This document shows positions 1-1,713 of a stretch of 3,479 nt of DNA, one piece after another (the first letter of the stretch is position 1; the number at the start of each line of letters is the position of its first letter). The stretch lies in the sequence record KM389437.1. The stretch is one strand, 5' to 3'. Under the pieces are notes generated by a model. The model ran no database searches. It saw only the letters and a program-made list of their open reading frames with translations, and was not told the origin of the DNA. The position numbers and the translations under genes are program-made. Source of the stretch: Escherichia phage Phi05_1999 B.

Positions 1-56
1 AGAGGAAGAGGAAGAGGAAGATATATATAAAACCCCACACATAGCGCACGTGCGCG
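1..56. other. Possible right arm of a phage replication origin embedded in the O gene: GAGGAA x3 tandem hexamer (2-19), (AT)n/A-rich run (20-34), perfect 12-bp palindrome GCGCACGTGCGC (44-55)
   Basis: Repeats and palindrome read directly from the sequence. In lambda the origin lies inside O as iterons, then an AT-rich region, then a palindrome. The iterons would lie upstream of the window and are not visible. Confidence 0.35.
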
Positions 57-442
57 AGGGTGCTCCGACCAGTGAAGCGAACGGTATGCCGTTGCAGGTG
101 GCTGAACCTGAATTTCTGGATGGCCTGAGTGAACCCATCGGGAAATTTCCGATGACCGATGGCTGGCTACCGTCGCCAGATTTTCGGCGGCGTGCTGCGC
201 TGTGGGGAACGGCCCTGCCGGAACCGGAATTTACACCTGCTGAACTTGCTGCATTCCGGGATTACTGGATGGCTGAGGGCAAAGTGTTCACGCAGGTTCA
301 GTGGGAACAAAAATTCGCCAGGCACGTAAATCATATCAGGGGAAAATCAAAAAATGCCGGGAAAAGCGATGAGCTTGACTGGAATAACACTGACTGGATA
401 GAAGGGGTGTGGGATGAAATCAACTCCAGAACTTCTCAATGA
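2..442 (+). CDS. O: Replication initiation protein O-like, C-terminal (P-interacting) portion; 5' end lies outside the window
   Basis: The frame of the 50..442 ORF stays open back to position 2 (EEEEEEDIYKTPHIAHV-REGAPT...), so the GTG at 50 is internal and the gene is truncated by the window edge. The C-terminal end (...SDELDWNNTDWIEGVWDE) resembles the lambda O C-terminus (...LDLTNTDWIYGVDL, from memory). Position immediately upstream of and overlapping a P-like gene matches lambda O-P order. Stop TGA 440-442. Confidence 0.75.
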   Translation, partial: EEEEEEDIYKTPHIAHVREGAPTSEANGMPLQVAEPEFLDGLSEPIGKFPMTDGWLPSPDFRRRAALWGTALPEPEFTPAELAAFRDYWMAEGKVFTQVQWEQKFARHVNHIRGKSKNAGKSDELDWNNTDWIEGVWDEINSRTSQ

Positions 443-1190
443 GTACGATCGCTTACGTGAGCATGGTGTTGCTGTGCATGAAGAGCGGCGGGACTGCAAT
501 GGCAAAAAGGAGCAGGTTGCTAGAATTTTCAATGAACTATTTGTCCAGTTACAGGCTGCATTTCCTGCAAGCGTTTCGACCATAAGGGAGCAGAACAAAC
601 TTAATGAATTCCGTAAGCAATGGATGCTTGCGTTTCTGGAGAATGGGATCACTACAATGGAACAGGTTAACGCTGGTATGCGCCACGCCCGCGCCAGTGA
701 ATCTCCGTTCTGGCCGTCGCCAGGGCAATTTATCAAGTGGTGTAAAGACAGCAAGATGGTTCTTGGCGTCACCATTGACGATGTGATGGCGGAGTTTCAC
801 CGGTACAGCAAGGAAAAAAGTTTATATCCTGGTGGTCCCGAAAGATTCCCGTGGCGGCATCCGGTTATGTACTGGGTCGTATGTGATACCCGCCGTGCAA
901 TGTATCAGCGCCAGCTTAGCGAGATTGAGGTTGAGAAACACGCGCGCAGGCTGCTCGATGATTGGGCGAAAAAGGTGGCTTCCGGACAGCAGATACCCGA
1001 TCCGGTGATCAGCATACAGGCAAAGCCAGAACCCATGAGTACACCTCCGGACACAGGGAGAGACGTTTACCATCCACCAGGGCGAAGTTTCGGGTGCATG
1101 CCTAACGCCGCCACCCTGGGGGGAATAACACCGGCGCAGTGGCTGATGGAGGAGTACAGGCGGGGAAAGGCAGCAGGATTTATCAAGTAA
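414..1190 (+). CDS. P: Replication protein P-like (DnaB helicase loader), 258 aa
   Basis: Translation aligns by eye with lambda P from memory: here LFVQLQAAFPASVSTIREQNKLNEFRKQWMLAFLENGITTMEQVNAGMRHARASESPFWPSPGQFIKWC versus lambda VFSQLLATFPASLANRDQNEVNEIRRQWVLAFRENGITTMEQVNAGMRVARRQNRPFLPSPGQFVAWC. N-terminal length before this block is the same. SD AAGGGG (402-407) lies 6 nt upstream of ATG 414. Start overlaps the O stop by 29 nt. Stop TAA 1188-1190. Confidence 0.88.
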   Translation: MKSTPELLNEYDRLREHGVAVHEERRDCNGKKEQVARIFNELFVQLQAAFPASVSTIREQNKLNEFRKQWMLAFLENGITTMEQVNAGMRHARASESPFWPSPGQFIKWCKDSKMVLGVTIDDVMAEFHRYSKEKSLYPGGPERFPWRHPVMYWVVCDTRRAMYQRQLSEIEVEKHARRLLDDWAKKVASGQQIPDPVISIQAKPEPMSTPPDTGRDVYHPPGRSFGCMPNAATLGGITPAQWLMEEYRRGKAAGFIK

Positions 1191-1195
1191 TACCA

Positions 1196-1215
1196 GCGCG
1201 ATAGCGCATTTTTTT
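1196..1215 (+). terminator. Weak intrinsic-terminator-like hairpin, GCGC-GATA-GCGC followed by A + T7 (tR2-like position after P)
   Basis: 4-bp all-GC stem (1196-1199 / 1204-1207), 4-nt loop, then T-run 1209-1215, located 6 nt after the P stop. The stem is short, so termination would be partial at best. Lambda has tR2 downstream of P. Confidence 0.3.
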
Positions 1216-1226
1216 ACGTCTCGATA

Positions 1227-1243
1227 ATTACCTGTTAGGTAAT
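1227..1243. promoter_or_regulatory. Perfect 7-3-7 palindrome ATTACCT-gtt-AGGTAAT (candidate operator, copy 1)
   Basis: Arms are exact reverse complements. A second near-identical copy lies 62 bp downstream, centre to centre. Confidence 0.4.
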
Positions 1244-1261
1244 AAAATGTTCTAAAATCTA

Positions 1262-1290
1262 TTGATTTCGTGTCTTATGTGGTTTTTAAT
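1262..1290 (+). promoter_or_regulatory. Sigma70-like promoter candidate: -35 TTGATT (1262-1267), 17-bp spacer, -10 TTTAAT (1285-1290)
   Basis: 4/6 and 5/6 matches to TTGACA / TATAAT with canonical 17-bp spacing. Predicted +1 near 1297, giving a very short leader to ATG 1308. Not verified. Confidence 0.25.
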
Positions 1291-1305
1291 TACCTAAGAG
1301 GTAAA
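1289..1305. promoter_or_regulatory. Near-perfect palindrome ATTACCT-aag-AGGTAAA (candidate operator, copy 2) overlapping the -10 element, predicted +1 and SD of the DUF1064 gene
   Basis: Same half-sites as copy 1 with one mismatch in the outermost position of the right arm. Overlaps SD AAGAGG (1296-1301) of the gene starting at 1308. Confidence 0.4.
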
Positions 1306-1307
1306 TC

Positions 1308-1652
1308 ATGAGAAAACAGATACAGGCTCTTGGTCGACTCAAAACAGGCCAGATGAACAAAACAGAATCTGCGTATTGCCAGCACCTTGAGCTGCGTAAA
1401 CGTGCAGGGGAAATCGCCTGGTATCGATTCGAGGGTATCAAGCTGCGGTTAGCTGACAACACGTTCTATACGCCAGATTTCGCTGTGATGCTCGCCACCG
1501 GAGAGATGGAACTGCACGAAGTGAAAGGTTTCTGGACCGACGACGCCAGGGTGAAAACCAAAGTCGCCGCAGATCAGTATCCGTTCCGAATCATCGGGGT
1601 AACGGTTAAACCAAAGAAAGCAGGTGGCGGCTGGAACATCGAAGAGTTCTGA
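1308..1652 (+). CDS. DUF1064-like protein with PD-(D/E)xK nuclease-like motif, 114 aa
   Basis: SD AAGAGG lies 6 nt upstream of ATG 1308. Translation contains AGEI (res 33-36), YTPDF (res 54-58) and ELHEVKG (res 68-74), i.e. D57 ... E71-x-K73, the spacing of a PD-(D/E)xK core. The overall pattern matches my recollection of the DUF1064 family found near phage replication genes. Stop TGA 1650-1652. Confidence 0.7.
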   Translation: MRKQIQALGRLKTGQMNKTESAYCQHLELRKRAGEIAWYRFEGIKLRLADNTFYTPDFAVMLATGEMELHEVKGFWTDDARVKTKVAADQYPFRIIGVTVKPKKAGGGWNIEEF

Positions 1653-1713
1653 ATCGACGATCTTTTTAGTTATCAATGTAATCAATAAGTTATGTGGATA
1701 AGCGAGGGTAAAG

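What the first reader, a model, noticed from the sequence alone, without database searches (positions are those of the whole stretch)
1191..1307. Regulatory spacer after P: two copies of a 17-bp palindrome bracketing a promoter-like element
ATTACCT-N3-AGGTAAT occurs perfectly at 1227-1243 and with one mismatch at 1289-1305, 62 bp centre to centre (about six helical turns). The downstream copy overlaps the candidate -10 element, the predicted transcription start and the SD of the DUF1064 gene, a repressor-like position. The upstream copy sits near -62 relative to the predicted start, a position compatible with looping or activation. A short GC hairpin plus T7 (1196-1215) precedes them, like lambda tR2 after P. 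Together this suggests the downstream operon is insulated from pR read-through and separately controlled by a dimeric DNA-binding protein that is not encoded in this window.
Basis: seen in the sequence. Interest (0 to 1): 0.6.

Follow-up and report, generated by a model that had tools for sequence, protein, structure and literature searches.

The report
Prophage repressor operators flanking internal promoter
The two palindromes are very probably binding sites for the prophage's own lysogeny repressor, placed either side of an internal early promoter; this is an ordinary phage control element, and the matching site in phage epsilon15 is already annotated.

Summary
ATTACCTGTTAGGTAAT (1227-1243) and ATTACCTAAGAGGTAAA (1289-1305) lie 62 bp apart, and 0 of 200 shuffles give two such sites.

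The window is the early-right region of an epsilon15/phiV10-like temperate podovirus (genus Uetakevirus). It matches Escherichia phage Phi05_2388 B at 100% over the parts the records share.

The conserved unit is ATTACC-N5-GGTAA(T), not N3. The same phage has 10 exact copies outside the window. They lie beside its repressor gene and ahead of other operons. The RefSeq record of epsilon15 annotates the site homologous to 1227-1243 as a repressor binding site.

The repressor gene lies about 1.1 kb upstream of the window. It is homologous to the tetrameric SPC32H Rep (PDB 5D50, E 4e-42).

Among closely related sequences the half-sites never vary, while the central spacer is the most variable stretch. 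In 152 of 153 operator pairs spaced 62-63 bp, TTGA sits 27 nt upstream of the downstream operator. The early-left promoter region has the same layout.

Weak points: binding, promoter activity and termination are inferred, not shown. The -10 (TTTAAT) lacks the usual A at position 2, and the hairpin stem is only 4 bp.

This is a new member of a known kind, of low to moderate interest.

The parts
414..1190 (+). Replication protein P homologue. It is the last gene of the upstream (replication) transcription unit.
   Evidence: Pfam PF06992, E 1.6e-55. Annotated as replication protein P in relatives.
1196..1215 (+). Terminator-like element: 4-bp GC hairpin GCGC-GATA-GCGC (1196-1207), then A, then T7 (1209-1215).
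   Evidence: Folds at -7.4 kcal/mol, z = -2.7. The stem and T-run are conserved across the genus while the loop varies. phiV10 RefSeq annotates the homologous element as a putative rho-independent terminator. The stem is too short for the scanner.
1227..1243 (.). Upstream operator (O-up), ATTACC-TGTTA-GGTAAT. Its centre lies about 62 bp upstream of the predicted transcription start.
   Evidence: Exact match to the motif. Homologous to the epsilon15 site 35906-35922, annotated 'protein_bind: repressor, lysogeny'. The half-sites are invariant in 23 close relatives while the N5 spacer is the most variable stretch.
1244..1261 (+). 18-nt A/T-rich linker between O-up and the -35. Its length is the same as in the early-left promoter cassette.
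   Evidence: The inter-operator DNA 1244-1288 is 76% A+T, against 51% for the window.
1262..1267 (+). Candidate -35 hexamer TTGATT, within the conserved block CTATTGA.
   Evidence: TTGA lies exactly 27 nt upstream of the downstream operator in 152 of 153 operator pairs, always in one orientation only. The block CTATTGA is fully conserved in 63 unique homologues.
1285..1290 (+). Candidate -10 hexamer TTTAAT, with a 17-nt spacer. Its last two bases are the first two of the downstream operator. It lacks the usual A at position 2.
   Evidence: Read from the sequence. The early-left cassette has AATTAT or GATTAT at the same position and distant relatives have CAGTAT. Not reported by the scanner.
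1289..1305 (.). Downstream operator (O-down), ATTACC-TAAGA-GGTAAA. It covers the predicted transcription start (about 1297) and the Shine-Dalgarno sequence GAGGT (1298-1302).
   Evidence: Conserved in all relatives as ATTACC-N5-GGTAAA followed by (N2)TCATG. Present in epsilon15 but not annotated there.
1308..1652 (+). DUF1064 gene, the first gene of the downstream unit. In epsilon15 and Tyrion a RuvC-like resolvase gene occupies this position behind the same regulatory cassette.
   Evidence: Pfam PF06356. Annotations. tblastn counts.

Best explanation
The 117-bp spacer is a 'terminator - operator - promoter - operator' cassette of an epsilon15/phiV10-like temperate phage (genus Uetakevirus).

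The two 17-bp sites (ATTACC-N5-GGTAAT/A) are operators for the phage's own lysogeny repressor, Rep. Rep is a two-domain helix-turn-helix protein homologous to SPC32H Rep, which is a tetramer. In this phage it is encoded about 1.1 kb upstream of the window.

**Proposed mechanism**
- In a lysogen, Rep occupies O-down (1289-1305), which covers the end of the -10, the transcription start and the ribosome-binding site. It also occupies O-up (1227-1243), six helical turns upstream.
- Most likely one tetramer holds both sites cooperatively and bends the 76% A+T promoter DNA between them. This shuts off a sigma-70 promoter (TTGATT-17-TTTAAT, start near 1297).
- That promoter drives the distal early-right genes: DUF1064, eae-like, DUF7739 and ead/Ea22-DUF551 within the window, and further genes in relatives, ending before the terminase.
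- The weak hairpin plus T7 after P ends, at least partly, transcription coming from the replication genes.
- On induction an antirepressor inactivates Rep, as shown for SPC32H. This promoter would then fire together with the phage's other Rep-controlled promoters.

**Shown here:** the motif, its genome-wide placement, its conservation, the fixed geometry and the Rep homology.

**Inferred:** that Rep (rather than, or as well as, the Cro-like protein) binds here; cooperativity or looping; promoter activity; termination.
For: 1. **Not chance.** The two sites are not expected by chance in the window. TTACC-N5-GGTAA occurs 8 times exactly in the 17.4-kb record of the same phage, against 0.01 expected. 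It occurs 10 times in the close relative ZX5, against 0 expected. All 10 ZX5 sites lie in the 8.6% of the genome that is intergenic (P about 2e-11).

2. **Placement in the same phage.** In Phi05_2388 B (100% identical to the window over shared parts) copies sit downstream of rep as a pair spaced 62 bp. Others sit between rep and the divergent cro-like gene, after the cro-like gene's terminator, ahead of the small terminase gene and the head genes, and in the region that holds the antirepressor and tail-fibre genes in ZX5. The same map holds in ZX5, SPC32H, phiV10, epsilon15, Tyrion, BUCT554 and BUCT711.

3. **Existing annotation.** Epsilon15 RefSeq annotates seven such sites as 'repressor, lysogeny'. 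One of them is the site homologous to window 1227-1243.

4. **The repressor.** The phage's Rep matches PDB 5D50 (SPC32H Rep) over its full length, E 4e-42, 42% identity. The block NLVNRW, which I read as the recognition helix, is invariant in six Reps that all have the same operator half-sites. Distant N-terminal homologues with other residues at that position have no such sites within 12 kb. SPC32H Rep binds palindromic DNA as a tetramer and carries a looping-type tetramerisation domain (PMC9638917; PMC9986798).

5. **Phylogenetic footprint.** In 23 unique sequences 92-100% identical to the window, both half-sites of both operators are invariant. The N5 spacer of O-up holds the most variable positions of the 200 bp compared.

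6. **Fixed geometry.** Among operator pairs spaced 47-77 bp in viral contigs, 117 are spaced 62 bp and 19 are spaced 63 bp. The next most common spacing, 76 bp, has 9. In 152 of 153 pairs spaced 62-63 bp, TTGA lies 27 nt upstream of O-down in exactly one orientation.

7. **Same layout at the early-left promoter.** After rep there is a terminator hairpin with a T-run, then O-up, an 18-nt A/T-rich linker, CTATTGACA, 17 nt, a -10 fused to ATTACC, a ribosome-binding site and ATG. That region must contain a repressible promoter, which supports the same reading here.

8. **The cassette stays while flanking genes change.** The downstream gene is DUF1064 or RuvC-like, and the upstream gene is P-like or DnaT-like.
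Against: - No binding, transcript-start or termination data could be consulted. The primary SPC32H and epsilon15 papers are not in the library. The epsilon15 'repressor' features are probably motif-based predictions themselves.
- The candidate -10 (TTTAAT, or TTAAAT in relatives) lacks the A at position 2 that nearly all sigma-70 promoters have (general knowledge). The scanner did not call it. The promoter may therefore be weak or need an activator.
- A start near 1297 would leave a leader of only about 11 nt, with the ribosome-binding site at its extreme 5' end.
- The hairpin has only 4 base pairs, so termination may be inefficient. The downstream genes might then be expressed mostly by read-through.
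- The Cro-like protein would be expected to use the same sites, so the ligand under lytic conditions is not settled.
Confidence: 0.78

Rival explanations
1. The sites are real operators, but the protein acting here is not Rep. It would be the small Cro-like lytic regulator encoded opposite rep, or another phage regulator such as the gp49-like protein at the end of the early-right operon. It would turn this operon down or up during lytic growth.
For: A 76-aa gene sits divergent from rep, with the same motif in the shared intergenic region. In lambdoid phages Cro and CI share operators (general knowledge). O-up, centred near -62, is a position from which activators can work.
Against: The motif surrounds rep on both sides and co-occurs with the invariant NLVNRW block of Rep, read here as its recognition helix. 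Epsilon15 RefSeq assigns the sites to the repressor. O-down sits over the -10 and the start, which is a repressing position. This rival is not exclusive of the main explanation.
Confidence: 0.1
2. The promoter is the other candidate, TCGATA-16-TAAAAT (1221-1248, start near 1255). O-up would lie in its spacer as the repressing site, and O-down would act as a downstream roadblock or auxiliary site.
For: It is the only promoter-like match the scanner reports in the spacer. TAAAAT has the canonical A at position 2 and T at position 6. An A-rich block after O-up is fairly well conserved in the P/DUF1064-type cassettes.
Against: Its -35 lies in the most variable part of the spacer and is not conserved. 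The early-left cassette and distant relatives have no equivalent -10 after O-up, yet they keep TTGA-17-(-10) fused to O-down.
Confidence: 0.08
3. There is no promoter here. The repressor sites act only as transcription roadblocks, in the manner of 'stoperators', that stop leaky read-through from the upstream early promoter in lysogens. The downstream genes would be expressed solely by read-through after induction.
For: The hairpin is weak and the -10 is non-canonical. Genome-wide repressor sites that block elongation are known in mycobacteriophage L5 (general knowledge).
Against: The CTATTGA block is perfectly conserved at a fixed distance in 152 of 153 pairs, and its geometry is identical to the early-left promoter. 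That is hard to explain without a promoter. A conserved hairpin plus T7 just upstream would make a read-through-only design self-defeating.
Confidence: 0.07
4. The palindromes work at the RNA level. They would form hairpins that hide the ribosome-binding site or serve as processing sites, rather than acting as protein-binding DNA.
For: The O-down palindrome pairs ACCU with AGGU of the Shine-Dalgarno sequence. Transcripts starting at about 1297 would lack the left arm, whereas read-through transcripts would carry it.
Against: The hairpins are weak (-5.5 and -4.2 kcal/mol; z = -2.2 and -1.2). The same motif occurs in regulatory regions that are transcribed in either direction or divergently. There is no Rfam match. 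The arms never vary, so there is no covariation to support pairing.
Confidence: 0.03

Closest known systems
Repressor operators of epsilon15-like phages (Uetakevirus), with the SPC32H Rep/Ant lysis-lysogeny switch
   Same: The 17-bp palindrome ATTACC-N5-GGTAAT is the same. The genomic position is the same, between the replication genes and the resolvase or DUF1064 gene. The site homologous to 1227-1243 is annotated as a repressor site in epsilon15 RefSeq. The phage encodes a full-length homologue of SPC32H Rep.
   Different: This instance is from an Escherichia coli phage whose Rep is only 42% identical to SPC32H Rep. The second site (O-down) is not annotated in epsilon15. I could not find the paired 62-bp layout, or its identity with the early-left cassette, described in any accessible source. 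Binding was not tested here.
Lambda CI at OR/OL: cooperative binding of repressor dimers, including to sites separated by whole helical turns
   Same: A helix-turn-helix lysogeny repressor binds palindromic 17-bp operators that overlap promoters. The paired sites lie on the same face of the helix (62 bp is 5.9 turns), which would allow cooperative binding with DNA bending.
   Different: The protein family and induction mechanism differ. In the SPC32H model Rep is inactivated by an antirepressor and is not cleaved (PMC9638917; my recollection of Kim and Ryu 2013). In lambda, adjacent operators are about 24 bp apart. Lambda also has no CI operators between P and the nin genes.
Lambda tR2 and the nin region downstream of gene P
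   Same: A terminator-like element follows the P homologue and precedes a block of accessory early genes, including a Holliday-junction resolvase in some relatives.
   Different: Lambda passes tR2 by N-mediated antitermination and has no promoter or operators there (general knowledge). Here the element is followed by a repressor-controlled promoter cassette. The hairpin here has only 4 bp.
Mycobacteriophage L5 gp71 'stoperators': many repressor sites spread through a phage genome
   Same: One repressor has many sites spread over the genome, outside the immunity region.
   Different: L5 sites are asymmetric 13-bp sequences, lie mostly within transcription units, depend on orientation and block elongation (general knowledge). 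Here the sites are palindromic, number about 10-14 per genome, and are all intergenic and promoter-associated.
Looping tetrameric repressors (Rco of plasmid pLS20, LacI, GalR)
   Same: The SPC32H Rep tetramerisation domain has the same fold as the loop-forming domain of Rco (PMC9986798). Paired operators here bracket a promoter.
   Different: A 62-bp centre-to-centre distance is much shorter than the classical loops. Looping is not shown here.

Membership tests
Operator of the epsilon15/SPC32H-type phage repressor (Rep) | 17-bp palindrome with half-sites ATTACC / GGTAAT separated by 5 unconserved bases | tested here: met
   1227-1243 matches exactly and 1289-1305 matches except for the last base. 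The annotated epsilon15 sites have the same form.
Operator of the epsilon15/SPC32H-type phage repressor (Rep) | The same motif clusters around the repressor gene of the same phage (its OL and OR regions) | tested here: met
   In Phi05_2388 B (100% identical to the window over shared parts) sites lie at window-relative -1833 and -1771 (downstream of rep) and at -1059 and -1011 (between rep and the cro-like gene).
Operator of the epsilon15/SPC32H-type phage repressor (Rep) | The phage encodes a Rep homologue with the conserved NLVNRW block, read here as the recognition helix | tested here: met
   L131:2703-3287 encodes a 194-aa protein that matches PDB 5D50 at E 4e-42 over residues 1-190. NLVNRW is invariant in six Reps. 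The gene lies outside the window.
Operator of the epsilon15/SPC32H-type phage repressor (Rep) | Half-sites under purifying selection relative to their surroundings | tested here: met
   Entropy is zero at all 20 half-site positions in 23 unique close relatives. The N5 spacer of O-up reaches the highest entropy in the 200 bp compared.
Operator of the epsilon15/SPC32H-type phage repressor (Rep) | Direct, sequence-specific binding by Rep | not testable with these tools
   This needs a gel-shift, footprint or ChIP experiment. The primary papers that may report it for SPC32H are not held.
Sigma-70 promoter | -35 and -10 hexamers with a 16-18 bp spacer, and A at position 2 and T at position 6 of the -10 | tested here: inconclusive
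   TTGATT (4 of 6), a 17-nt spacer, then TTTAAT (5 of 6) with T instead of A at position 2, so the scanner does not list it. The -35 position is conserved in 152 of 153 pairs, and related cassettes have canonical -10s (AATTAT, CAGTAT) at the same position.
Sigma-70 promoter | Transcription initiates there | not testable with these tools
   This needs 5' end mapping or a reporter fusion.
Intrinsic (rho-independent) terminator | G+C-rich stem, usually 5 bp or more, immediately followed by a U-run | tested here: inconclusive
   The stem is 4 bp, all G-C, followed by A and then U7. It folds at -7.4 kcal/mol, z = -2.7, and is below the scanner's 5-pair minimum. The stem and T-run are conserved with a variable loop across the genus. 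phiV10 RefSeq annotates it as a putative terminator.

The most novel reading that the evidence does not exclude
A single Rep tetramer clamps two operators exactly 62-63 bp apart and wraps the whole promoter between them into a very tight micro-loop. This terminator-operator-promoter-operator cassette exists as two paralogous copies, one at the early-left promoter and one at the boundary after the replication genes. It would let these phages run a segmented early-right operon without lambda-style antitermination. The strict 62-bp rule (136 of about 170 pairs in the 47-77 bp range) would then be the DNA-side signature of the unusual 'trans' DNA-binding mode proposed for SPC32H Rep. I could not find this described in accessible sources.
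Probability: 0.3. Interest if true: 0.45.

Novelty: new member of a known kind. Interest (0 to 1): 0.25.

Why it matters
It also shows that the repressor of this phage group controls almost every operon directly, not only the two promoters next to its own gene.

The module is common. It is present in 529 of 5,426 complete Escherichia coli genomes, and in Salmonella, Klebsiella and Enterobacter phages.

The very strict 62-bp spacing and the fixed promoter position give a concrete and cheap test of how the tetrameric SPC32H-type repressor engages DNA. For genome annotation it provides a simple rule: pairs of TTACC-N5-GGTAA spaced 62 bp, with TTGA 27 nt upstream of the second site, mark repressor-controlled promoters in these prophages.

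It does not reveal a new kind of mechanism.

Tried and rejected
- **Primary papers.** I tried to read Kim and Ryu 2013, Kim et al. 2016 and Kropinski et al. 2007. None is held. Statements about SPC32H Rep therefore rest on two later papers that cite them, on the PDB match and, where marked, on my memory.
- **Literature searches.** Searches for the motif, for epsilon15 with 'operator', and for DUF1064 with 'promoter' found nothing relevant. The paper on ZX5, a close relative, shows that its repressor and antirepressor affect the lytic-lysogenic switch but defines no operators.
- **RNA families.** Rfam at a permissive threshold gave no match in the window, so a known RNA element is rejected.
- **RNA-hairpin reading.** Rejected: the energies are weak and the motif occurs in regions transcribed in either direction.
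- **Chance.** Rejected.
- **A host transcription factor as the ligand.** I know of no Escherichia coli regulator with this site (memory only). The motif follows the phage across four host genera, so a phage-encoded protein is more likely.
- **The motif belongs to the DUF1064 gene.** Rejected: the same cassette precedes a RuvC-like gene in epsilon15 and Tyrion.
- **Co-variation test with repressors of different specificity.** Only weakly informative. The locus search was seeded with the NLVNRW block itself. All enterobacterial relatives share the motif. The only homologues with different residues in that block are distant ones in unrelated elements, and they lack the motif.

Full report
**1. 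The observation**

The window contains ATTACCTGTTAGGTAAT at 1227-1243 and ATTACCTAAGAGGTAAA at 1289-1305, 62 bp apart. With up to two mismatches allowed these are the only matches. None of 200 dinucleotide-preserving shuffles gives two.

They lie in the 117-bp spacer between a lambda-P homologue (414-1190; PF06992, E 1.6e-55) and a DUF1064 gene (1308-1652; PF06356).

The hairpin GCGC-GATA-GCGC (1196-1207) followed by A and T7 is present. Its stem is only 4 bp (-7.4 kcal/mol, z = -2.7), and the terminator scanner does not call it.

The scanner omits it because the -10 has T instead of A at position 2. It reports TCGATA-16-TAAAAT (1221-1248) instead.

**2. Where the window comes from**

The window is the early-right region of an epsilon15/phiV10-like temperate podovirus (genus Uetakevirus).
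- It is 100% identical to the overlapping parts of two unannotated records of Escherichia phage Phi05_2388 B.
- It is 93-99% identical, in parts, to phages ZX5, HEMP4, phiV10 and TL-2011b and to prophages next to guaA.
- The 200 bp around the spacer occur in 529 of 5,426 complete Escherichia coli genomes.

**3. What the palindromes are**

The RefSeq record of epsilon15 annotates seven 17-bp 'protein_bind: repressor, lysogeny' sites of the form ATTACC-N5-GGTAAT. One of them, 35906-35922, aligns with window 1227-1243. The partner site, 62 bp downstream over the ribosome-binding site, is also present in epsilon15 but is not annotated.

I scanned complete genomes for TTACC-N5-GGTAA. Each of ZX5, SPC32H, phiV10, epsilon15, Tyrion, BUCT554 and BUCT711 has 8-13 exact sites, at equivalent places:
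- a pair downstream of the repressor gene;
- one to three sites, exact or with one mismatch, between the repressor gene and the divergent cro-like gene;
- one site after the cro-like gene's terminator;
- the pair studied here;
- sites ahead of the small terminase gene and ahead of the head genes;
- sites between the antirepressor and tail-fibre genes.

In ZX5, 10 exact sites occur where shuffles give none. All 10 fall in the 8.6% of the genome that is intergenic (P about 2e-11).

In the records of the very phage the window comes from there are 10 exact copies outside the window, against about 0.01 expected in the larger record. The repressor gene lies at window-relative positions of about -1700 to -1116.

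**4. The protein**

The repressor of this phage (194 aa) matches SPC32H Rep (PDB 5D50) over its full length, E 4e-42, 42% identity. Six Reps that are 42-78% identical to this phage's Rep share the block NLVNRW, which I read as the recognition helix, and all share the same operator half-sites.

Distant homologues of the N-terminal domain in Paraburkholderia, Hydrogenovibrio and Thiomicrospira have different residues at that position. They have no exact TTACC-N5-GGTAA site within 12 kb; one of them has a single one-mismatch match. This contrast is weak evidence, because those elements are otherwise unrelated.

Two later papers summarise SPC32H Rep. They say it binds palindromic DNA as a tetramer, with each DNA-binding pair formed by subunits from different dimers. 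It is released by the antirepressor Ant and carries a tetramerisation domain of the DNA-looping type (PMC9638917; PMC9986798). The primary papers were not available to me.

**5. Conservation**

I compared 23 unique sequences that are 92-100% identical to window 1150-1349.
- All 20 half-site positions are invariant.
- The central N5 of the upstream site (1233-1237) and the few bases just 5' of it are the most variable positions of the whole stretch, coding DNA included.

This is the pattern expected for a protein that contacts the half-sites and not the centre. It also shows that the 'N3' form seen in this window is incidental.

In 63 unique, more divergent homologues the conserved blocks are GCGC...GCGC, T7ACG, TTACC, GGTAA, CTATTGA, TGTGG, AATTACC and GGTAAA(N2)TCATG.

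**6. Geometry**

I searched viral contigs for pairs of exact sites 47-77 bp apart. This returned 120 loci, and the scan stopped at its limit.
- The spacing histogram has 117 pairs at 62 bp and 19 at 63 bp. It then has 9 at 76 bp and 4 at 74 bp, and no more than 2 at any other spacing in the searched range.
- 62-63 bp is 5.9-6.0 helical turns.
- In 152 of 153 physical pairs spaced 62-63 bp, TTGA lies exactly 27 nt upstream of the downstream 17-mer, in one orientation and never in both.
- 84 of the 120 loci encode a Rep homologue within the piece fetched.

**7. The same cassette at the early-left promoter**

Downstream of rep, and reading in rep's direction, the same phage has the following order:
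- a strong terminator hairpin with a T-run;
- ATTACC-N5-GGTAAT;
- 18 A/T-rich nt;
- CTATTGACA;
- 17 nt;
- AATTAT, fused to ATTACC-N5-GGTAAC;
- a ribosome-binding site and ATG.

The spacer studied here has the same order and the same distances: 18 nt from O-up to the -35, and 27 nt from TTGA to O-down.

The early-left region must hold a repressible promoter. The gene upstream of it is rep, which is expressed in lysogens, while the genes downstream of it are lytic. The structural identity is therefore my main argument that 1262-1290 is a promoter and that the hairpin plus T7 is its upstream boundary.

A distant relative keeps the geometry with a canonical -10 (TTGAAA-17-CAGTAT) and has no equivalent of the alternative TAAAAT element. 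This favours TTGATT-17-TTTAAT over the scanner's candidate.

**8. Mechanism proposed**

In lysogens Rep occupies O-down, which covers the -10 end, the start and the ribosome-binding site. It also occupies O-up, six turns upstream. Probably one tetramer holds both sites and bends the 76% A+T DNA between them, which silences the promoter.

The hairpin plus T7 ends at least part of the transcription coming from the replication genes. On induction the antirepressor removes Rep, and this promoter fires with the others.

- Shown: motif, distribution, conservation, geometry and homology.
- Inferred: binding by Rep, cooperativity, promoter activity and termination.

**9. Weak points**

- The -10 lacks the A at position 2, so the promoter may be weak or need an activator.
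- A start near 1297 leaves a leader of about 11 nt.
- The hairpin has 4 bp.
- The epsilon15 annotation is probably a prediction.
- The Cro-like protein may share the sites.

**10. Comparison and novelty**

This is an orthologous instance of the epsilon15-type repressor operator. It works in the familiar way of phage operators that overlap promoters and bind cooperatively across whole helical turns.

It differs from lambda, which has no operators or promoter after P and passes tR2 by antitermination. It differs from L5 stoperators, which are asymmetric and lie inside transcription units. Both statements are general knowledge.

I found three points undescribed in accessible sources: the pairing rule (62-63 bp), the fixed promoter position, and the duplication of the cassette at two places in the genome. 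They may be described in the papers I could not read. I therefore rate this as a new member of a known kind, with interest 0.25.

Noticed in passing
window 1-60 (continues upstream in L131:1527-1605, minus strand): Inside the DnaT-like replication gene there is a run of GAGGAA repeats (3.5 copies), preceded by two GTTACC-containing 12-mers. It is followed by ATATATATAAAA and then the palindrome GCGCACGTGCGC. This resembles an origin of replication embedded in the initiator gene, as in lambda ori within gene O.
   Followed up: partly
window 1233-1237 and 1219-1226; also 1296 and 1299: Among sequences 92-100% identical to the window, the 5-bp centre of the upstream operator and the bases just 5' of it are far more variable than anything else in the 200 bp compared, coding DNA included. 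The upstream operator of the early-left cassette shows the same thing. This may be simple lack of constraint, tuning of repressor affinity through the uncontacted centre, or exchange between operator copies.
   Followed up: partly
L131:3310-3445 (same phage, downstream of rep); window 1196-1310: The early-left promoter region and the spacer studied here share the same order of elements and identical distances: hairpin with T-run, operator, 18 nt, CTATTGA, 17 nt, -10 fused to the operator. They look like two copies of one regulatory cassette.
   Followed up: yes
window 1308 onward, compared with L006:35987-36451 and L008:37345-37809: The gene directly behind the conserved cassette is DUF1064 in this phage, phiV10, SPC32H, BUCT554 and BUCT711. 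In epsilon15 and Tyrion it is a RuvC-like resolvase. The gene in front is a P-like replication protein in most of these phages but DnaT-like in epsilon15. The cassette therefore sits at a mosaic joint.
   Followed up: partly
Rep proteins: L131:2703-3287, L004:33739-34335, L006, L008, L009, L010: Reps only 42-45% identical overall keep the same operator half-sites and an invariant NLVNRW block, while most divergence is in the linker and C-terminal domain. Phages of Escherichia, Salmonella, Klebsiella and Enterobacter may therefore share operator specificity. Immunity differences may then rest on the pairing of repressor and antirepressor.
   Followed up: no
window 1680-1692 and 1725-1737: There are two exact matches to the IHF core consensus WATCAANNNNTTR, against 0.15 expected; 2 of 200 shuffles reach two. 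The first lies in the DUF1064-eae spacer, where epsilon15 RefSeq annotates an IHF site.
   Followed up: partly
window 1278-1282: TGTGG in the promoter spacer is conserved in 63 divergent homologues of this cassette, with no obvious role. It is not placed as an extended -10 element.
   Followed up: no
window coordinate about -674 (L131:2248-2262, minus strand): A single operator with one mismatch (CGTACCTCAAAGGTAAT) sits just after the terminator of the cro-like gene and ahead of the replication genes. It is conserved in ZX5, phiV10 and Tyrion. This suggests a further repressor-controlled boundary within the early-right region.
   Followed up: no
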